Virus genome (UHGV): UHGV-0355499
Length of the DNA: 44,522 bases
Reading direction: 5' to 3' (one strand)
Source of the DNA: a virus
Shown here: positions 2,303 to 8,533 of the stretch, one piece after another
How the letters are laid out: each line of letters begins with the position of its first letter
Numbering within the stretch: position 1 is the stretch's first letter
The notes under the pieces: generated by a model
Seen by the model: the letters and a program-made list of their open reading frames with translations, nothing else
Told to the model about the DNA's origin: nothing
The model's database searches: none
Translations under genes and position numbers: made by a program

Positions 2303-2611
2303 GAGTAGCCCCTCTTCTGAGGGGTTGCACATTTAAAATATTAAGGGCGGTCTTCTTCACGTACACAGTCACCTGGTCGAATCGTTCACGCATACTGAGT
2401 ACAAAAAATCTCAACGATAAGATCAGGTTAGACCTGTATTTTCCAGAAACATATAGACGCCTAAAAAAACACTAAACTCATGATTATCATGTATGTTTTT
2501 ACTGGAAACATTGAACCATCCACAATACAGCGTAAAAAGCAAGCAATTCACAAGATTTTAAAGTGATTTATCTGGAAGACTTTACTACTAACAGTTAATA
2601 TCGTACCAGAA

Positions 2612-2626
2612 GTGCAGAATTTGCAC
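2612..2626. promoter_or_regulatory. palindromic operator-like site GTGCA-N5-TGCAC upstream of the peptidase gene (similar 15-mer at ~1847-1861)
   Basis: GTGCAGAATTTGCAC ~75 nt upstream of ATG 2701; related CTGCACTATTTGCAC at ~1847-1861. Confidence 0.3.
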
Positions 2627-2700
2627 TTTTACAGGAATGTGGTACGGAACATGCTGTCTATATTTCAACCAATAATCGTAATGCAGTAACTGGAGGAGCT

Positions 2701-3189
2701 ATGGCTACCAACCCAAGAGAGCACGCCCGGCGAGTGCTGGACACGTTCTGGTGCGGGCGTGGTTTCCCTGTTGATCCAGCGAAAATTGCTCACGACATGG
2801 GATTAGATGTTTTTATTACCGATCTTCCTGGGAAAGTTTCTGGCGCACTGATTAAACAAAAAGATCAAGATCCAGCGATCTTTCTAAACAGTGATGACAA
2901 CAAAGTTCGTCAACGTTTTTCATGTGGGCATGAGTTGGGGCATTACATCGCCCGGCAAGCATCGCATAGCGATGAATATGAGTACGTTGATTTACGTGGC
3001 GAAACCGCAAGCGCCGGAACGCATCCTGATGAAATTTTTGCAAACAAGTTCGCAGCAGAACTTCTGATGCCGGTAGATGAGGTCAGAAAACTGCACGCTG
3101 ACGGTCAACCAAGTTATATAATGGCGCATTATTTTGGCGTATCTGACGATGCGATGACTTATCGTTTAAAGAACTTGAGGTTGGGGTAA
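2701..3189 (+). CDS. ImmA/IrrE-family (COG2856-type) zinc metallopeptidase
   Basis: 162-aa ORF with HEXXH motif (CGHELGHYI) and downstream conserved Glu (AAELLMP) typical of ImmA/IrrE peptidases; GGAGGAG RBS. Confidence 0.8.
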   Translation: MATNPREHARRVLDTFWCGRGFPVDPAKIAHDMGLDVFITDLPGKVSGALIKQKDQDPAIFLNSDDNKVRQRFSCGHELGHYIARQASHSDEYEYVDLRGETASAGTHPDEIFANKFAAELLMPVDEVRKLHADGQPSYIMAHYFGVSDDAMTYRLKNLRLG

Positions 3190-3198
3190 CGCTTTAAA

Positions 3199-3804
3199 AT
3201 GCCATCGGATGACGATTTTAACAGCCGTTTCAAACAGGAAGTAGCACGCAGACTGAAGGATTCCCTCAACCTACACCGTCAGTTAGCAGAAGAGGTTGAG
3301 CCGGAGGACGATGAAACTCCGGTTCAGTCTCCTGACGAAGCTTCACCTCAGCCAAAGGTTTCGCACGCCCCCAAAAAAACGGCTGTCCGTATTCGCGGAA
3401 TAGCCAGAAAAAGAGCTGCCGAAGCTCGCAAAATGGCTGTAGCTGCGTCTAGCAAAAGAATTCCAACTGCTACACCCTCTCAACAAGTCACCCGTACTGA
3501 GAGTAAAATCTTGACCGAGTTCACATCTGTGAAACAGGTGAATTCACTTGATACCGAGCATGAGCGCAAACAACTCAACAACAAAGATTTTGAAGCAGAA
3601 ATCGCTCTAAAAAAACGATACGGGAAATGGTTCCTGATTATCCTTGCTTTCCAACTTCTGATAATGAATGGTGTATTTATTGCCGACGGCGCAGGTAAGC
3701 TGGAATTTGAGGATTTAACACTACAGTTGTACATGGGCGGTACTTTGACAGAGGTATTCGGCCTCGTGCTGGTCGTGACAAAATACCTTTTTAAACGCAA
3801 GTAA
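3199..3804 (+). CDS. hypothetical protein with charged N-terminal region and C-terminal double transmembrane segment
   Basis: 201-aa ORF 10 nt downstream of the peptidase gene (likely co-transcribed); last ~60 aa strongly hydrophobic; its last ~72 nt are duplicated at ~7155-7226. Confidence 0.55.
   Translation: MPSDDDFNSRFKQEVARRLKDSLNLHRQLAEEVEPEDDETPVQSPDEASPQPKVSHAPKKTAVRIRGIARKRAAEARKMAVAASSKRIPTATPSQQVTRTESKILTEFTSVKQVNSLDTEHERKQLNNKDFEAEIALKKRYGKWFLIILAFQLLIMNGVFIADGAGKLEFEDLTLQLYMGGTLTEVFGLVLVVTKYLFKRK
3732..3803 (+). repeat. direct repeat copy 1 (3' end of ORF 3199-3804)
   Basis: ~72 bp, ~90% identical to 7155-7226 (ATGGGCGGTACTTTGACAGAGGTATTCGG...AAATACCTTTTTAA). Confidence 0.8.
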
Positions 3805-4266
3805 CTCTCTCGGTCCAACAGTCTTTCGAAGGCCCTGATCAAAGGGCCTTGATAAATTAGCAGTGCGTTGAAAACAGATAGTTATTCCCATCAGTTCCAA
3901 CGTAATACACATCAAAAAAATCACCATTCTTTTGCTCTAACGTCAACACCTACCCTTAAAAAAATAATTCTCCAAGAATGAGAAAGTTATTGTGTGTATT
4001 AGATAAGATATGAGCTGACACATCTATGGCGTGGAGCCAAATTTAATATGACAGTCCGCTCTGTGCCATAAGCGGACTGTCAATAAACAGATTCACTTGT
4101 AAATCTTGAAGCTATACATATTTACTTTCAATGATAAATAAAAGAACTATCCAAAAATCACTGAGAGCATATTTTAACTAACCCTCCGCTACTATTAACA
4201 TAAATTTCACCCAACCATAATTAAATTGATACATATAGCAACTTACCTTGATACGAATCATCTGGG

Positions 4267-4965
4267 TTATATTTTTCCATATTTTTTTCCGTCAAATCGA
4301 ATCATGCCAGGATCAAGAAAATTAATTAAATCGATTAACGCGTGCTGTATTCTGATTAGCCTTTCTTTATAAATTCCGATATCTCTTGTCATATTTATCA
4401 CTTCATTGTTTAAATCTAAAAAAAATGGCTCATTGATAAAGCAATTTTCCTTTGTGAAACTGCCGTAACCTATGCAATCAAATCCAGTATCTGTTGATAT
4501 CAGCATCTTTTCTGCAATAGCTCTCTGCTCTCCTATGAAAAACATAAAATACTGACCAAAGACGTCTGTTTGGATTAATGAGTTAATATTGTTCTGTAAT
4601 CTAATAAACTCCCTCATTTTTTTATTTTTTTCTAGGCTAAGGTATTGAATGTCTATGCGGGCAGCTTCTGTCCATGCAAAAAACTGGGAAAAAAGAAAAA
4701 CAGTATTGTTGATAACATAATCTTGTTGGCGCTTATTCCCATTATGATAAAACTCTTCAATGAACCCCAATTCTAATATATTATAAATACGGCTTTGTAA
4801 GTCTGAAGCTGAGCGAATTAACGGTTCAATATAGTACTGATGTTTTCTCCTTACATCCAGTGATTCATTGAGCTTGTTTATTCTATTCTGATTATAAGTA
4901 GATATAGCAATAGAGATTATAGCTATTGCACCACTAATAAAGCTTGAAATTAATGCCGTACCCAT
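4267..4965 (-). CDS. hypothetical membrane-anchored protein (single N-terminal TM helix), AT-rich cargo gene
   Basis: 232-aa ORF; N-terminal hydrophobic helix (LISSFISGAIAIISIAIS); compositionally distinct low-GC region; no family recognised. Confidence 0.5.
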   Translation of the reverse strand: MGTALISSFISGAIAIISIAISTYNQNRINKLNESLDVRRKHQYYIEPLIRSASDLQSRIYNILELGFIEEFYHNGNKRQQDYVINNTVFLFSQFFAWTEAARIDIQYLSLEKNKKMREFIRLQNNINSLIQTDVFGQYFMFFIGEQRAIAEKMLISTDTGFDCIGYGSFTKENCFINEPFFLDLNNEVINMTRDIGIYKERLIRIQHALIDLINFLDPGMIRFDGKKYGKI

Positions 4966-6152
4966 CTAAAAGTCCTTTGATTCTTGCTTGGTTAACAAAA
5001 TGACATAATTTTATTTAATGCCATAACAACTTAACAATATATCATAATATGATTATTATGGTGTAGCTTGTCGCATCTACGCTCCATTACAAACAGATGT
5101 AAGATATAACCTATATGTTTTAGCCAGCAAATTCGAAAGCATTCAAAGTAGTCTCATCGAACTCTCGAAACCCTATGTCTTCGGGTATAAAATATTTAAA
5201 TCCATTTGCATAATATCGACTCATGTTTATTATATTCTCCCCATTCACCATTAAGATTTGACATTATTTTCAACAATCGGTTATTGCAAGATTGAAATAT
5301 ATTTTTACTTGACACAATATTCCATGTAGCCCAGCGATTCGACTTACCCCCAACTATACGGACAATCTAAATTAAATCGATGATTTTTTGATACATTCTC
5401 CTCTCTCCATTACTTTATGTTTTTGTTCCCCAAAAATACCTTGCTCTCTAAAAAATAATTGTTCTTTAAGTTCAAAATCGAGATCTACATGAGCGTTAGA
5501 TACAAAGCTAATATGTTGAAATGTCTTTCCCCCCCCATAACGGCATTGTTATCTAAACTATGTTACACAAATATAATATTACCCTTTCAACGTAATCCAA
5601 GAATAAGATTAATGCCATTATATATATCATAAATATGATATTTTGTATATTTTTATCATTTAGCCTTGATTGTACTAGGTGTACTCTCAACGAAGTAGGG
5701 AAAGTCTGTTCCTCGCTCACAGCTGCCCTTCAGTAAGCGAAAAAATGCCTACTCGGTGCCATATACAGCCATTGTTATTAACAGCAGGGAATAATTCAAA
5801 ACTGAAATTAAATATCTACCTTTTACAGTAGAAATAGTTCCTCCAGGACACTATCCATTGCCGGGCACAATCACTCGGGGTATAACGATATAAAATATGT
5901 TCATGATAGTGCAGGTTCGTATATTAAGTTCAGCAGCGAAAACATGCCTTACAGGTTTCCGGTTTTGGGAGCGTCGTTACAGGATCCTGCGCATACCGTT
6001 CCCATCTGTTGAATTAAAGGTTTCACAGCCTTTGCCGATATCACCTTTTACCTTACCTGTGATGCGTTCAGTGCTCAGCGTTGTTTACTGTAGCTCTCGG
6101 GACTGATTACAGACCGCGTCTTAAAAACCAATCCTTACTCTAAAGGGAATTC

Positions 6153-7076
6153 ATGAGATTAAAATACTCAGTACTCTTACTCGCCATTGCCCTTACAGGC
6201 TGTGATAACAAAAAAGATGAGATCGGTTGTTCTTCGGAAATAACCCAGTCAGCTCTCATGGATTTATTAAAAAAATCTGCTTATGAAGGACTCTCTGAAC
6301 AGGTCGATAAATACCCTGATGTCACTAATCAGACCAAACGAAGCACACTGGACAAGATCAAACTAGCCATCTCTGAGATCTCCACAACATCAAGTGACAC
6401 GGGCAGCACAATGAAAACTTGTGAAGGGACCGTGACGATGACTCTATCTGCGAACGAGTACGTCCAGCTTTCAGATGCTTACAGAAAGAATTTTAATCGT
6501 AATCTCGATAAGCAAATGGAAAGCCTGTTTTTGGAGAACAACGCAAACGCCTTTTCAAAACGTATCACCTACACCGTGCAGGCGACCGACGATCAGAAAA
6601 ACGTTTTTGTAAAAACCTCTACTGATAATCCGATATCAGTGGGCGCCGCTTTACTGACATCGCTTTCCATTATCACCCCGATCGTTGAGCAGCAGAAAAT
6701 CCAGCAGGCTAAGGATGCCCAACAGAGTCAAATTGAAGCGGAACAACAGGTGCAACTCAGGGCGCAAGAACAGGCTAAGTATGAGGCGGAGAAGCAAATA
6801 GAGAGACAGGCACAACTTCAGCCGCAAAAAGCTGACAACCTTGATCAGTCCCGAATGGCATTTGCGAATGCCGACTCTGATTTGAGTACCGTCTGGAGCA
6901 AGTTAACCCCGGCGAAGAAAAAAGATTTGCTGCCTTCTCAGCGTCAGTGGATCAAAACTAAGGATGCTATGTGCGGTAAAGTTTCAATGCAGGGAACAGA
7001 TGCTGAAGTCAAGAAAATGGTCGACTGCCAGACGCAAATGACCCTTTCAAGAATCGCTTTCCTCAGAAACCAATAA
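6153..7076 (+). CDS. lipoprotein with Gln-rich coiled-coil linker and C-terminal DUF1311/LprI-like domain
   Basis: Signal peptide with lipobox LTGC; QQ-rich coiled coil; C-terminal pattern QRQW..KD..C...(14)...C....R as in LprI/DUF1311 proteins; hairpin terminator at ~7090-7123. Confidence 0.6.
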   Translation: MRLKYSVLLLAIALTGCDNKKDEIGCSSEITQSALMDLLKKSAYEGLSEQVDKYPDVTNQTKRSTLDKIKLAISEISTTSSDTGSTMKTCEGTVTMTLSANEYVQLSDAYRKNFNRNLDKQMESLFLENNANAFSKRITYTVQATDDQKNVFVKTSTDNPISVGAALLTSLSIITPIVEQQKIQQAKDAQQSQIEAEQQVQLRAQEQAKYEAEKQIERQAQLQPQKADNLDQSRMAFANADSDLSTVWSKLTPAKKKDLLPSQRQWIKTKDAMCGKVSMQGTDAEVKKMVDCQTQMTLSRIAFLRNQ

Positions 7077-7154
7077 CTGAAGTCTCCTTCAAGCTGGCGC
7101 CAGGTGTTAACCTGGTGCCAGCTTAGTCATCAAGTGCATATGTAACTGTTTTAT

Positions 7155-7226
7155 ATGGGCGGTACTTTGACAGAGGTATTCGGTCTCGTGCTGGTCGTGG
7201 TCAAATACCTTTTTAAGCGCAAATAG
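7155..7226 (+). repeat. direct repeat copy 2 (orphan duplicate of the 3' end of ORF 3199-3804)
   Basis: Matches 3732-3803 with ~7 mismatches, including the same stop context; no upstream ORF body. Confidence 0.8.
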
Positions 7227-7250
7227 AGTATTTCCGCCCCAAACAACCTG

Positions 7251-8069
7251 TCAAAATGCTGAATTAGCAACGGATATAGCCGACTTTTTCCCCATTACCA
7301 TCAATTTATCCAGTGTCATACTTCGCAGATTGTCGCTGTGGATCACCAGATACCCTGCCCGCTCAGCGATCTCTTTGAAAGCGTCAAAGGTCATCAGATG
7401 TTCGCCTTTGGCAACATGGCGCATCCCGGTCACTTTTCCATTTTTGATAGTGGTGATAAAAGAAAAATCTGGAATGGTTGGGTGATTTTCATCGAGTAGC
7501 AGGCAGTGGATGTATTCAATCGCCTCTAACATTTGCGTCTGTGACAGTTGTTCTATGTGAGAGACGGCGAAGCGTTGATGAATCATGGTGTAGGCATCGG
7601 GATACATCATGCCTTTCTTGCCGACCAGTATATTAACGGCATCACGCAAGGGAGTACGGTCATCGGTAGTTGTACTCCGCCTCTCTGGACGCTGGCTAAA
7701 ATAACAATCTTCCAGCTTTTCGAAAACTTCCCAGGCCTGTTCTGTTTCCAGCATTTTGGCATGGCGAGCTGCGCCGCGTTCTGTCCAGAGAATGAGGGAT
7801 CGGGTATGTTTAGCAACTGACTGACTATCTGTCAGTCTGTTTTTGAAGTCGCGTAATTCATTACCTTCCAGCTTAAAAAAATGCTTTCCTACGACAAATC
7901 TGGCGATGTTGCGCTTGAAGTTTTGCTGGATACCATTTACTTCCGTGCCATACAAACTGGCAAGCAATTCAGTAGTGATGACGGGAAGTTGGTTATGATG
8001 TAGCGGAGAAAGGGATTCCGCAGATATTTGGACTGTCATCGCAGTGGCCTCACTTAGTGTTTTTTTCAT
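7251..8069 (-). CDS. phage antirepressor (Ant-like)
   Basis: N-terminal region (LPVITTELLASLYGTEVNGIQQNFKRNIARFVVGKHFFKLEGNELRDFKN) resembles phage antirepressor N-terminal domains; ORF-track start at 8087 is TTG, first ATG at ~8069. Confidence 0.7.
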   Translation of the reverse strand: MKKTLSEATAMTVQISAESLSPLHHNQLPVITTELLASLYGTEVNGIQQNFKRNIARFVVGKHFFKLEGNELRDFKNRLTDSQSVAKHTRSLILWTERGAARHAKMLETEQAWEVFEKLEDCYFSQRPERRSTTTDDRTPLRDAVNILVGKKGMMYPDAYTMIHQRFAVSHIEQLSQTQMLEAIEYIHCLLLDENHPTIPDFSFITTIKNGKVTGMRHVAKGEHLMTFDAFKEIAERAGYLVIHSDNLRSMTLDKLMVMGKKSAISVANSAF

Positions 8070-8311
8070 CACCACCAGCGACGCCAATCATCTGGTGGTG
8101 AGCTGTGCAGGGTTGGCGTAACCGGCTAAGTGAACCCGGCGCTTCCACAGAAGCCCCCACACAGCCCACCATAATGCGAATGTGGCCGTGCCTAACACAT
8201 AAAAAAACCGCTAACGCGGCTATGCGTCACTTAGATATCCGGGACGCCAATCCCGGCAACCGATTTTGCGGCTGCGCGGAAACTATAGCCCCGGACTTTT
8301 TCTAAGTCAAT

Positions 8312-8533
8312 TCAATCAACTTCAAACCTCCGGTGTTCACATTCCATACACTCAACGGGAACATCATCGCGATGCAAGTCCACATATCCGACCCGCTTAT
8401 ACAACTCAATAATGTCCGGTAACGTGACCAGATGTTTTTCCGGTTCCAACACCTCAGCCCGGGTTACTTTGTAATCTGAAATATAGAGCACTATCCGCCC
8501 GTTCCGTGGTAACTCCAGTTTATCGCCAAACAT
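8312..8533 (-). CDS. hypothetical phage protein
   Basis: 73-aa ORF in the early-right gene string; no domain recognised. Confidence 0.35.
   Translation of the reverse strand: MFGDKLELPRNGRIVLYISDYKVTRAEVLEPEKHLVTLPDIIELYKRVGYVDLHRDDVPVECMECEHRRFEVD

What the first reader, a model, noticed from the sequence alone, without database searches (positions are those of the whole stretch)
3732..7226. AT-rich two-gene cargo cassette flanked by ~72-bp direct repeats of a gene 3' end
The last ~72 nt of ORF 3199-3804 recur at ~7155-7226 (~90% identity) as an orphan fragment just before the convergent antirepressor gene. The 3.35 kb in between is compositionally distinct (very AT-rich from ~3850 to ~6150) and carries two divergent cargo genes: a membrane-anchored 232-aa protein (4267-4965, -) and a lipoprotein with a DUF1311/LprI-like domain (6153-7076, +), each with its own terminator hairpin. 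This is the signature of cargo inserted at a recombination hotspot without an integrase or transposase of its own. Such cargo often encodes superinfection exclusion or anti-phage functions, and both products are envelope-located.
Basis: partly seen in the sequence, partly recalled or inferred. Interest (0 to 1): 0.7.

Follow-up and report, generated by a model that had tools for sequence, protein, structure and literature searches.

The report
Hairpin-bounded gene cassettes in prophage hotspot
The interval is not one inserted cassette but a patchwork of two independently acquired single-gene cassettes in a variable cargo hotspot of an E. coli ST131 prophage; the repeat is a relic of a second gene copy, and the points where cargo is exchanged are small conserved DNA hairpins also found in unrelated phages.

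Summary
An 81-nt direct repeat (3723-3803 / 7145-7225, 89%) brackets an AT-rich stretch and two cargo genes.

The single-insertion reading does not hold. The window is an E. coli ST131 (EC958) lambdoid prophage, and the interval lies in a hypervariable slot between the replication genes and Q. It has at least two modules:
- A 232-aa membrane-protein cassette (about 4054-5728), 86-87% identical to the insert deposited from the Z region of phage P2-EC58.
- An LprI/DUF1311 lipoprotein module (5924-7122), 88% identical to a chromosomal Citrobacter locus.

In relatives the same slot holds PD-T4-3, HEC-08, a GmrSD-like protein, a SMEK-domain protein or GIY-YIG nucleases.

The right repeat copy is a relic of a diverged allele of the 201-aa gene: four of five changed codons are synonymous. 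One genome (GPEC172) has lost all 3.4 kb through a crossover inside the repeat.

Homology between cassettes in different contexts starts and stops at a 24-nt palindromic element, GTCCGCT-N10-AGCGGAC. It also flanks cassettes in the P2 Z/fun hotspot, another prophage family and genomic islands, and occurs in 44 proteobacterial species.

Neither cargo protein's function has been tested. An anti-phage or envelope-protection role is inferred.

The parts
2701..3189 (+). ImmA/IrrE (Peptidase_M78) metalloprotease gene, immediately upstream of the 201-aa gene
   Evidence: Pfam PF06114 E 7.7e-18. PADLOC capP E 2.4e-25. RefSeq annotation.
3199..3804 (+). 201-aa protein of unknown function with two C-terminal hydrophobic segments. 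Its last 81 nt are the left repeat copy.
   Evidence: ORF list. phrog_5346, function unknown. Hydropathy.
3723..3803 (+). Left (intact, in-gene) copy of the 81-nt direct repeat
   Evidence: the repeat finder family D1. A type I-E CRISPR spacer in strain 23CRST031 matches 3755-3786 with an AAG PAM.
3829..3850 (+). Terminator-like hairpin after the 201-aa gene
   Evidence: DNA fold dG -8, z -3.8. Conserved after both repeat copies in L004.
3857..4005 (-). 3' remnant of an 85-aa minus-strand gene. The gene is intact in relative L004, where it follows the RIGHT repeat copy.
   Evidence: blastn: window 3723-4005 matches L004 7453-7742 at 83%. L004 annotation WP_033814620.1. Sequence.
3985..4077 (+). 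About 90-nt left boundary element of the type found after gene G in the P2 Z/fun hotspot. It ends in hairpin B (GTCCGCT CTGTGCCATA AGCGGAC, 4054-4077; extended stem 4049-4082).
   Evidence: 81% identity to P2-EC58 33-128. Matched at 78-84% in about 300 other E. coli genomes, with matches ending at 4076-4077. Fold z -8.6. Breakpoints of L024, L027 and L040 fall here.
4267..4965 (-). 232-aa single-pass membrane protein ('lysogenic protein'), the cargo of cassette 1
   Evidence: 85% amino-acid identity to the family member P0002; the P2-EC58 ORF1 (CAD54907) lies in DNA 86-87% identical. 290 homologues with conserved motifs. AF2 pLDDT 87.7. No Pfam or NCBIfam family. Weak PADLOC RTasTM hit, E 1.8e-5.
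4966..5704 (-). ORF-less AT-rich upstream region of the 232-aa gene (promoter region in the P2-EC58 annotation). It travels with the gene.
   Evidence: 71-88% identical to P2-EC58. -35/-10 annotated in AJ512683. No Rfam hit.
5705..5768 (+). Degenerate junction of the A-linker-B type: hairpin A (GTCTGTT CCTCGCTCAC AGCTGCC, 5705-5728), linker CTTCAG..., and a degenerate B' (5745-5768). This is the right end of cassette 1.
   Evidence: MAFFT of junctions. P2-EC58 homology ends at 5723. Homology with relatives resumes at 5710, 5717 or 5752. It no longer folds (z +0.9).
5924..7122 (+). LprI-family lipoprotein module: promoter region, gene 6153-7076, and terminator hairpin 7091-7125
7145..7225 (+). 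Right, orphan copy of the repeat: the relic 3' end of a diverged allele of the 201-aa gene
   Evidence: Present downstream of LprI in L002, L003, L004, L024, L026 and L040. Carries a 1-nt deletion in L002. Crossover partner in the GPEC172 deletion.
7251..8039 (-). ORF6N-domain anti-repressor-like gene, convergent with the cassette array
   Evidence: Pfam ORF6N E 8.9e-22. phrog_4792 anti-repressor E 2.7e-163.

Best explanation
The interval is part of a hypervariable accessory (moron / anti-phage defence) hotspot. It lies between the replication module and the Q antiterminator of a lambdoid prophage of E. coli ST131. It was assembled stepwise from separate modules.

Module 1 is an AT-rich single-gene cassette (about 4054-5728) encoding a 232-aa single-pass membrane protein with its own promoter region and terminator. 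The same cassette sits in the Z/fun hotspot (between genes G and FI) of phage P2-EC58.

Module 2 is a promoter-gene-terminator unit (5924-7122) encoding an LprI/DUF1311 lipoprotein. Asp at +2 predicts that it stays in the inner membrane. The unit is shared with the Citrobacter chromosome and with Enterobacter prophages.

The 81-nt repeat is a recombination scar. The right copy is what remains of a second, diverged allele of the 201-aa gene, most of which was replaced when LprI-bearing DNA was recombined in. The two copies now act as substrates for homologous recombination that can delete the whole 3.4 kb.

Cargo turnover in the slot occurs at short palindromic elements (GTCCGCT-N10-AGCGGAC, present as inverted A and B versions) that bracket each cassette. 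Homology between the same cassette in different contexts switches on and off inside these elements.

Shown here: the anatomy, the separate origins, the allelic nature of the repeat, the deletion event, the variability and defence content of the slot, and the breakpoints at hairpins.

Inferred: the 232-aa protein is a membrane effector or exclusion protein acting against incoming phages; the LprI-like lipoprotein protects the lysogen's envelope by inhibiting muramidases; the hairpins themselves are the recombination sites.
For: Identity and context:
- The window is 100% identical to the EC958 and JJ1886 prophage, and 403 genomes carry the whole 6 kb. The gene order Q ... ImmA-201aa-232aa-LprI-ORF6N ... 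DnaB is given.

Mosaic origin:
- blastn map of the modules.
- P2-EC58 AJ512683 at 86.7% over 4011-5723, with annotated inverted repeats.
- The Citrobacter chromosomal context of LprI appears in 1006 index blocks. Enterobacter prophages carry it as well.

Hotspot content in relatives:
- PD-T4-3, E 1.7e-137 (L024).
- NsnA/PD-T4-2_A-like GmrSD_N protein (L004).
- SMEK_N protein with a methyltransferase (L027).
- T5orf172 GIY-YIG nuclease (L002).
- HEC-08, E 1e-173 (L040).
- Sources.

Neighbours of 232-aa homologues elsewhere: a P2-like hotspot in Providencia, an ORC/CDC6-like ATPase in Serratia, and SIR2-HerA in Xanthomonadaceae.

The repeat:
- Codon comparison of the two copies from the sequence.
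- The L004 orphan is followed by the terminator and the intact 85-aa gene.
- Orphan copies are decaying in L002 and L004.
- GPEC172 has a chimeric single copy.

The hairpins:
- Census and array grammar.
- Junction alignments.
- A second P2-to-lambdoid shared cassette: L040 9667-10687 matches L043 6731-7751 at 98.9%.
- All 60 listed E. coli hits to the A-linker-B element are intergenic.
- 44 species carry an exact 24-specified-base match.

Against: - No functional data exist for either cargo protein.
- The 232-aa protein matches no curated defence model apart from a weak RTasTM hit. Its predicted fold matches only generic helical bundles.
- LprI is conserved across relatives and is chromosomal in Citrobacter, so it may be a general envelope or fitness factor rather than an anti-phage gene.
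- Breakpoints in the slot are not exclusively at hairpins. On the left they fall at 3826, about 4005, 4077 and 4081. On the right they fall at 5710, 5717, 5752, 6955 and 7214.
- The window's own right-hand hairpin is degenerate.
- No recombinase family is consistently linked to the hairpins.
- The order of the historical events is a parsimony inference.
Confidence: 0.72

Rival explanations
1. A single two-gene cassette was inserted into the 3' end of the 201-aa gene at a recombination hotspot, duplicating about 72-81 nt of target. The repeats therefore mark the two insertion boundaries.
For: The 81-nt direct repeat brackets the cargo. One genome (GPEC172) has the 201-aa gene directly abutting ORF6N with a single repeat copy.
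Against: - The interval consists of modules with three different distributions.
- Relatives swap only the AT-rich part and keep LprI plus the orphan copy.
- The copies differ at 9 of 81 positions, mostly synonymously, so they are alleles rather than a fresh duplication.
- L004 has two orphan copies, each followed by the same downstream block.
- The single copy in GPEC172 is chimeric (left-type 5' part, right-type 3' part). It sits in a prophage otherwise about 100% identical to the window, while relatives at 97% identity carry both copies. GPEC172 is therefore a derived deletion.
Confidence: 0.05
2. The hairpins are passive. They are transcription terminators or insulators, or REP-like extragenic palindromes, that happen to lie at the ends of transcription units. 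Cargo exchange would then occur by ordinary homologous recombination in shared flanks plus illegitimate joins, possibly helped by relaxed-fidelity phage recombinases. Selection would keep only recombinants whose junctions leave promoter-to-terminator units intact.
For: - The window hairpin is scored as a terminator for the 232-aa gene.
- Breakpoints are not exclusively at hairpins.
- No linked recombinase or transposase family was found.
- In Alphaproteobacteria and Nitrosomonadaceae the element lies next to ordinary accessory genes at high local density, as REP elements do.
- Rad52-like phage recombinases are known to recombine short diverged homologies (from memory: De Paepe et al. 2014; not checked here).
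Against: - The 7-nt arms, part of the loop and an outward YKTCAG are conserved exactly across three proteobacterial classes.
- A and B are inverted copies of one element with conserved loop differences.
- Compensatory arm changes occur: GTCTGCT/AGCAGAC and GTCTACT/AGTGGAT.
- Homology switches inside the 10-nt loop in four independent junctions. A crossover in the central region of a core site predicts this. A terminator does not.
- Most copies lack a T-run.
Confidence: 0.4
3. The two cargo genes are lysogenic-conversion or fitness genes unrelated to phage defence. For example, the LprI-like lipoprotein could protect ST131 against host lysozyme or T6SS muramidases, and the 232-aa protein could be a membrane stress or signalling factor.
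For: - The LprI family is named after a mycobacterial lysozyme inhibitor (Pfam PF07007).
- The gene is chromosomal and widespread in Citrobacter.
- No PADLOC hit for LprI, and only a weak one for the 232-aa protein.
- Hairpin-flanked cassettes in Nitrosomonadaceae carry non-defence genes.
Against: The 232-aa cassette occupies a slot that holds validated or candidate defence genes in relatives. Its homologues sit beside SIR2-HerA, OLD-like and ORC/CDC6-like ATPase genes.
Confidence: 0.3

Closest known systems
Foreign-DNA inserts in the Z/fun region of P2-like coliphages (GenBank AJ512683, 'P2-EC58 proviral Z-region, ORF1'; Nilsson, Karlsson & Haggard-Ljungquist, Mol Biol Evol 2004; paper not held in the library, content recalled from memory)
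   Same: Window 3995-5723 is the same cassette at 86-87% nt identity. It includes the 232-aa ORF, its promoter region and the annotated left inverted repeat with its hairpin. Other P2-like prophages carry different cargo between the same hairpins.
   Different: Here the cassette sits in a lambdoid prophage between the replication genes and Q, not between tail genes G and FI. Only the inner roughly 20 nt of the right inverted repeat is retained, and it is degenerate.
[quoted passage not shown] 2022, PMC9122126; Moura de Sousa et al. 2026, PMC13586616)
   Same: A fixed locus between core genes. Cargo is swapped rapidly among near-identical elements. Known defence genes are present (PD-T4-3, HEC-08, GmrSD-like). 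Near-identical cargo is found in unrelated mobile elements.
   Different: This is a different phage type and locus. Those papers do not mention hairpins, stem-loops or inverted repeats, and the 2026 paper leaves the exchange mechanism open.
PeSL 'mobile regulatory cassettes' of T4-type phages (Arbiol et al. 2010, PMC2839356; Comeau et al. 2014, PMC4122927)
   Same: Short conserved stem-loop-containing motifs flank single accessory ORFs in hyperplastic regions, and are proposed to mediate modular shuffling.
   Different: PeSLs combine an early promoter with a terminator stem-loop and are specific to T4-like lytic phages. The element here has a palindromic 7-10-7 core in inverted A/B versions, occurs in temperate phages, genomic islands and three proteobacterial classes, and no promoter component was shown.
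Integron gene cassettes with attC sites, and Acinetobacter pdif modules (from general knowledge)
   Same: Arrays of mostly promoter-independent or single-gene units are separated by imperfect palindromes. The A-linker-B junction folds into one imperfect hairpin of about 66 nt. Crossovers map inside the element. As in pdif modules, the cargo is bracketed by inverted copies of a short site.
   Different: There is no IntI next to the arrays and no R''/R' GTTRRRY core. Genes lie in either orientation. Most cassettes carry their own promoter region. There is no similarity to dif or XerCD sites.
LprI/DUF1311 family (Pfam PF07007; crystal structure 3gi7 of P. putida PP0307)
   Different: The protein has an additional N-terminal alpha/beta domain (residues 29-155) and a 60-residue Q/E-rich helix not covered by the family model. 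Lysozyme inhibition was not tested.

Membership tests
Prophage accessory/defence hotspot | Fixed position between conserved core genes of related phages | tested here: met
   The same flanks (Q, DUF1364, DUF1367 on one side; ORF6N or the 74-aa gene and DnaB on the other) are found in L001, L002, L004, L024, L026, L027, L040, L041 and L042.
Prophage accessory/defence hotspot | Gene content varies among otherwise closely related elements | tested here: met
   At least six different cargo sets lie between window-equivalent positions of about 3826/4077 and 5710-7214.
Prophage accessory/defence hotspot | Cargo includes known anti-phage systems | tested here: met
   PD-T4-3 E 1.7e-137. HEC-08 E 1.1e-173. 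NsnA/PD-T4-2_A-like E 4.6e-41. SMEK_N E 2.8e-23.
Known anti-phage defence protein (232-aa protein) | Significant match to a curated defence-system model | tested here: not met
   PADLOC gives only RTasTM at E 1.8e-5 (22 bits, partial). No Pfam or NCBIfam family. phrog_5606 has unknown function.
Known anti-phage defence protein (232-aa protein) | Protection against phage when expressed | not testable with these tools
   This needs plaque assays. Only guilt by association is available.
P2 Z/fun-region insert (P2-EC58 ORF1 cassette) | Nucleotide homology over ORF1 and its flanking non-coding DNA | tested here: met
   86.7% over 1713 nt. Windowed identity 71-99%.
P2 Z/fun-region insert (P2-EC58 ORF1 cassette) | Flanked by the left and right inverted repeats annotated in AJ512683 | tested here: inconclusive
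   The left repeat is present (81% identity, hairpin intact). Of the right repeat only the inner roughly 20 nt remain. The window's left and right ends are not significantly inverted repeats: score 13 against a shuffle mean of 14.7.
Insertion with target-site duplication (IS/transposon-like) | Direct repeats generated at insertion, so initially identical and located exactly at the ends of the inserted unit | tested here: not met
   The copies are 89% identical with mostly synonymous differences. The boundaries of the exchanged unit lie elsewhere. Relatives show orphan copies in other arrangements.
Insertion with target-site duplication (IS/transposon-like) | Transposase or integrase within or beside the unit | tested here: not met
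   There is none between 3199 and 8039.
Integron cassette / attC | IntI integrase and attI adjacent to the array | tested here: not met
   No IntI was found in any array examined. A 200-aa Xer-like catalytic-domain protein occurs inside one cassette type only.
Integron cassette / attC | attC with R''/R' core sites (RYYYAAC / GTTRRRY) | tested here: not met
   The element is GTCCGCT-N10-AGCGGAC followed by YKTCAG, with no GTTRRRY.
Integron cassette / attC | Imperfect palindrome able to fold as a single strand | tested here: met
   A-linker-B composites fold as one long imperfect hairpin, z -5.6 and -4.5.
T4-type PeSL mobile regulatory cassette | Conserved motif combining an early promoter with a stem-loop, flanking accessory ORFs | tested here: inconclusive
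   The stem-loop flanking single ORFs is met. No promoter component was identified, and the promoter scan was not enriched over shuffles.
LprI/DUF1311 family | Match to PF07007 above the gathering score | tested here: met
   30.8 bits against a cut-off of 22, residues 225-304.
LprI/DUF1311 family | DUF1311 helical fold | tested here: met
LprI/DUF1311 family | Inhibition of lysozyme | not testable with these tools
   This is a biochemical assay.

The most novel reading that the evidence does not exclude
The GTCCGCT-N10-AGCGGAC element, with its outward YKTCAG and its inverted A and B versions, may be the core site of an unrecognised cassette-exchange system. Under this reading, single-gene cassettes (many of them anti-phage) are cut and pasted at these palindromes, with the crossover in the 10-nt centre, by a recombinase acting in trans. 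That would let the same cassettes shuttle between the P2 Z/fun hotspot, this lambdoid nin-region hotspot, a KpLE1/CPS-53-like prophage, GTPase-associated genomic islands, and islands in Alpha- and Betaproteobacteria. It would supply the mechanism that the 2026 P2/P4 study says is missing for defence-gene exchange between unrelated mobile elements. The 232-aa 'lysogenic protein' would then be one cassette of this pool and a new single-gene membrane defence or exclusion effector.
Probability: 0.3. Interest if true: 0.8.

Novelty: new member of a known kind. Interest (0 to 1): 0.5.

Why it matters
Taken as written, the finding is an ordinary prophage cargo hotspot. It is still useful for three reasons.

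1. It shows that the dominant ST131 prophage carries a P2-type cassette encoding a widespread, uncharacterised membrane protein family. That family keeps company with defence systems, which makes it a concrete candidate for plaque-assay testing.

2. It documents, with a natural deletion derivative, how a relic repeat makes 3.4 kb of cargo unstable.

3. It shows that cassette boundaries in at least three unrelated temperate-phage families and in genomic islands coincide with one conserved 24-30-nt palindrome. Recent work on P2/P4 hotspots states that the mechanism moving defence genes between unrelated mobile elements is unknown (PMC13586616). These elements give a specific hypothesis for that mechanism, and it can be tested by mutation.

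Tried and rejected
- Target duplication or ancestral empty site. A synthetic junction query found one genome (GPEC172), but its repeat is chimeric and its flanks are identical to the window. It was rejected as ancestral.
- Terminal inverted repeats for the window cassette. The window's left and right ends are not significantly inverted; only those of P2-EC58 are.
- A non-coding RNA in the ORF-less 740 nt upstream of the 232-aa gene. Rfam found nothing at E<=1, and this region is the least conserved part of the cassette.
- Sequence search against PDB for both proteins gave nothing significant.
- A recombinase linked to the hairpins. All-against-all clustering of ORFs in 44 loci found no recurrent recombinase or transposase.
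- Homology between the window's LprI upstream flank and the Citrobacter or Enterobacter upstream regions, which contain a hairpin in Citrobacter. None was found.
- Literature search for the hairpin sequence words returned only unrelated papers.
- The Nilsson 2004 paper is not in the library, so its content is cited from memory only.

Full report
**1. The observation**

The window is a prophage of E. coli ST131. Region 2500-8500 is 100% identical to EC958, JJ1886 and about 400 other complete genomes. RefSeq annotates, in order: Q antiterminator, DUF1364 and DUF1367 (minus strand); ImmA/IrrE and a 201-aa hypothetical protein (plus); a 232-aa hypothetical protein (minus); an 'LprI family' protein (plus); an ORF6N protein (minus); several small genes; then DnaB and the replication and immunity genes.

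The repeat finder gives one outstanding direct repeat, 3723-3803 versus 7145-7225, 81 nt at 89%. All other repeat families are 18 nt or shorter. The alignment shows that similarity starts abruptly about 10 nt before an ATG and ends at the stop codon.

GC content is 0.30-0.34 from about 3900 to about 5850, against 0.42-0.50 in the flanks and in the LprI gene. So the AT-rich block ends upstream of LprI, not at 6150. Both genes are followed by strong hairpins.

**2. The interval is a mosaic, not one cassette**

A blastn map against related loci divides the interval as follows.

| Segment | Content |
|---|---|
| 3805-~4005 | Terminator, plus the 3' remnant of an 85-aa minus-strand gene that is intact in relative L004 |
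| 5752-5923 | Shared only with relatives of this prophage |
| 5924-7122 | The LprI gene with about 230 nt upstream and its terminator |
| 7145-7225 | The orphan repeat copy |

The depositors of AJ512683 annotated a 'putitive lysogenic protein', a promoter, and left and right inverted repeats. That cassette lies between P2 tail genes G and FI.

The LprI segment is 87.7% identical to a chromosomal locus of Citrobacter freundii that lies between an iron ABC transporter and an MFS/amn region. The protein is indexed in 1006 blocks there. It is also 83% identical to lambdoid prophages of the Enterobacter cloacae complex, where it sits in the equivalent position between the replication genes and DinI/DUF1367/RusA/Q.

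**3. The slot is a hypervariable, defence-rich hotspot**

Close relatives keep the flanks but carry different cargo to the left of LprI.

| Relative | Cargo in the slot |
|---|---|
| L002 / L026 | T5orf172/MUG113 GIY-YIG nuclease plus two small ORFs |
| L004 | GmrSD_N (NsnA/PD-T4-2_A-like) protein plus a partner |
| L024 and L042 | Four single-gene cassettes, including PD-T4-3 (PADLOC E 1.7e-137) and DUF6650 |
| L027 | SMEK-domain protein, methyltransferase and an REase-like protein |
| L040 | HEC-08 (E 1.1e-173), a 200-aa Xer-like tyrosine-recombinase catalytic domain, an ETEC_3214 protein and a 269-aa protein |

Sources.

LprI plus the orphan copy is retained in L002, L004, L026 and L040. 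It is truncated in L024 and lost in L027.

**4. What the repeat is**

The two copies differ in five codons. Four changes are synonymous (GGC/GGT, AAA/AAG, AAG/AAA, TAA/TAG) and one is conservative (ACA to GTC, Thr to Val). This can be read directly. It is the pattern of two alleles that diverged while both were coding, not of an in-situ duplication.

In L004 the copy downstream of LprI is still followed by the terminator and the complete 85-aa gene. In the window that context follows the left copy. L004 also has a second orphan copy, with an internal stop, further left. In L002 the right copy has a 1-nt deletion.

The most economical history is therefore as follows. An ancestral arrangement of 201-aa gene, terminator and convergent small gene existed. 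Most of one such 201-aa gene was replaced by incoming DNA ending in the LprI terminator, which left the 81-nt stub. Later exchanges placed an intact ImmA-201aa pair and new cargo to the left.

**5. The 'empty site' test**

I built a synthetic junction (3400-3804 joined to 7226-7650) and searched all complete E. coli genomes. Of 462 matching genomes, one (GPEC172) has the junction in a single piece. Its prophage has the same protein accessions as EC958 on both sides.

Its single repeat copy is chimeric. It has left-type sequence up to the 28-nt stretch that is identical in both copies, and right-type variants after it. Relatives at about 97% identity carry both copies, whereas GPEC172's flanks are about 100% identical to the window.

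GPEC172 is therefore a deletion derivative produced by homologous recombination between the repeats. The repeat is a liability for the cargo, not the mark of its insertion.

**6. Where cargo is actually exchanged**

On the left, homology between the window and L024, L027 and L040 ends at 4077-4081. This is the end of hairpin 4054-4077, GTCCGCT CTGTGCCATA AGCGGAC. The roughly 90 nt ending in this hairpin (3985-4077) matches about 300 further E. coli genomes at 78-84%, and the matches stop at 4076-4077.

The contexts sampled were:
- Directly after gene G in the Z/fun hotspot of P2-like prophages, with various cargo (L005, L035, L037, L043, L044, L046).
- Between a DUF551 gene and the integrase of a KpLE1/CPS-53-like prophage, with two different cargos (UTI89 L038 and L039).

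Sources.

Aligning junctions revealed a recurrent inter-cassette element. It consists of hairpin A (GTCCGCT CCTCGCTCAC AGCGGAC), a linker starting CTTCAG, and hairpin B (GTCCGCT CTGTGCCAGG AGCGGAC). B is approximately the reverse complement of A, with 7 of 10 loop positions shared. So A and B are inverted copies of one element, and each has an outward-facing YKTCAG.

The array grammar is [B] cassette [A-linker-B] cassette [A]. Examples:
- L046: G | B | 461-aa gene | A-B | DUF3800 | A | FI.
- L024: four cassettes.
- Nissle (L045) and L047: genomic islands next to a GTPase-family gene.

Sources.

In the window, the 232-aa cassette has B at 4054 and a degenerate A at 5705, followed by a degenerate B' at 5745 ahead of the LprI segment. 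This junction no longer folds (z +0.9).

Three cassettes found in two contexts each show homology switching on or off inside the hairpin, usually within the 10-nt centre:
- The 269-aa-protein cassette, L040 versus P2-like L043, 98.9% identical, at both ends.
- The PD-T4-3 cassette, L024 versus L042, at the left end.
- The 232-aa cassette, window versus P2-EC58, at the right end.

Further properties of the element:
- Compensatory arm variants occur: GTCTGCT/AGCAGAC and GTCTACT/AGTGGAT.
- All 60 listed E. coli hits to A-linker-B are intergenic, and 363 of 5426 genomes have a detectable copy.
- An exact 30-nt pattern with 24 specified bases occurs in 44 species representatives. Far fewer than one match is expected by chance in 596 Gb. 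The species include many Enterobacterales, but also Alphaproteobacteria and Nitrosomonadaceae, where several copies flank miscellaneous accessory genes next to a P4-type integrase.
- No recombinase or transposase family recurs next to the element.

Breakpoints in this prophage family are not exclusively at hairpins (3826, ~4005, 5752, 6955, 7214). I therefore treat 'the hairpins are the recombination sites' as likely, and 'a dedicated site-specific system exists' as an open possibility of about 0.3.

**7. The cargo proteins**

*232-aa protein.* It has an N-terminal transmembrane helix. It belongs to a well-conserved family: 290 hits in Enterobacterales, Xanthomonadaceae and metagenomes. Invariant motifs include EPLxxxxxDLQSRxxN, WxExxR, FxGEQRA and LDP.

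Homologues sit in a P2-like hotspot in Providencia beside DUF2971 and OLD-like genes, beside an ORC/CDC6-like ATPase in Serratia, and beside SIR2-HerA in Xanthomonadaceae.

From this I infer a single-gene membrane effector or exclusion protein acting against incoming phages, with a probability of about 0.45. Nothing here shows how it works.

*LprI-like protein.* It has lipobox LTGC with Asp at +2. By the established Lol-avoidance rule, this predicts retention in the inner membrane, facing the periplasm. The architecture is an alpha/beta domain (residues 29-155), a 60-residue Q/E-rich helix, and a C-terminal DUF1311 three-helix domain.

I infer a periplasmic inhibitor of peptidoglycan hydrolases. 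The targets could be host lysozyme, T6SS effectors, or the cell-wall-degrading enzymes of superinfecting phages.

**8. Comparison with what is known, and novelty**

The cassette itself was sequenced from a P2-like phage in 2003-2004. Hotspots of this kind are well described for P2 and P4 (PMC9122126, PMC13586616). The closest mechanistic analogues are the PeSL cassettes of T4-type phages (PMC2839356, PMC4122927), integron attC sites, and pdif modules. The defining features of integrons (IntI, the GTTRRRY core) and of transposon insertion are not met.

Neither P2/P4 hotspot paper mentions hairpins or inverted repeats (the search covered 'inverted repeat' only), and the 2026 paper states that the mechanism of exchange with other mobile elements is unresolved.

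As a finding, the interval is a new member of a known kind. The hairpin grammar is the part that could prove new.

**9. Verdict**

Interest is moderate at 0.5: the finding is ordinary as a moron hotspot, but it yields a testable candidate defence gene and a specific, testable hypothesis for how cassettes shuttle between unrelated mobile elements.

Noticed in passing
window 6153-6184; 3755-3786; 2907-2941: Type I-E CRISPR arrays of other E. coli strains carry 32-nt spacers identical to this prophage. One matches the first 32 nt of the LprI ORF (PAM ATG); it is seen in strain 50579417 and at least 10 listed genomes, and probably accounts for the 138 records in the 90-95% band. A second matches the left repeat copy (PAM AAG; strain 23CRST031). 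A third lies in the ImmA gene (35/35 nt) and was not inspected.
   Followed up: partly
window 2701-3804: The ImmA/IrrE protease matches the CBASS regulator CapP in PADLOC (E 2.4e-25). It is followed 10 nt later by the 201-aa protein, which has two C-terminal hydrophobic segments. This could be a protease-plus-membrane-protein module with its own, possibly defence-related, function. In GPEC172 the module sits directly against ORF6N.
   Followed up: no
window 7155-7229: The orphan repeat begins with ATG and retains an open 24-codon frame (MGGTLTEVFGLVLVVVKYLFKRK), a hydrophobic helix with a basic tail. No obvious ribosome-binding site precedes it. The frame is broken in L002 and kept, with substitutions, in L004.
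   Followed up: partly
L003 (NZ_CM135813.1) 5288-6010; H64 (NZ_CM190132.1): IS-mediated rearrangements affect the hotspot. In FXCREC016 an IS1 joins P2-like tail genes directly to window position ~5880, upstream of LprI. In strain 23556 an ISEc52 is inserted in the region.
   Followed up: partly
L040 8020-8622; L045 2339-2941; L047 6607-7209: A 200-aa stand-alone tyrosine-recombinase catalytic domain (WP_001305361.1) sits inside hairpin-bounded arrays. It is Xer-like or invertase-like in NCBIfam, below the cut-offs. It lies divergent from HEC-08, in a prophage hotspot and in two genomic islands (including E. coli Nissle). It is either cargo or a candidate enzyme for the hairpins.
   Followed up: partly
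L056, L081, L084, L088 (Nitrosomonadaceae MAGs); L051, L052, L087, L091 (Alphaproteobacteria): The same GTCCGCT-TTTGGCACAA-AGCGGAC-ATTCAG hairpin occurs 3-4 times per 8 kb, often in one orientation. It flanks accessory genes (Sel1, DUF1254/1214, a hydrolase, a deacetylase, DUF2846) next to a P4-type integrase. Such exact conservation across bacterial classes is unexplained.
   Followed up: partly
L004 7268-7315: The LprI gene of strain HCP5S3_I2 carries a 24-nt in-frame tandem duplication (GGAACAGATGCTGAAGTCAAGAAA x2) in the DUF1311 domain, making the protein 315 aa long.
   Followed up: no
L015-L018 5612-5635: The chromosomal Citrobacter LprI locus has a hairpin of the same family (GTCCGCT CCTGGTACAC CGCGGGT in normalised orientation) about 370 nt upstream of the gene. 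This is a similar distance to the degenerate B' in the window. No flanking homology was detectable.
   Followed up: partly
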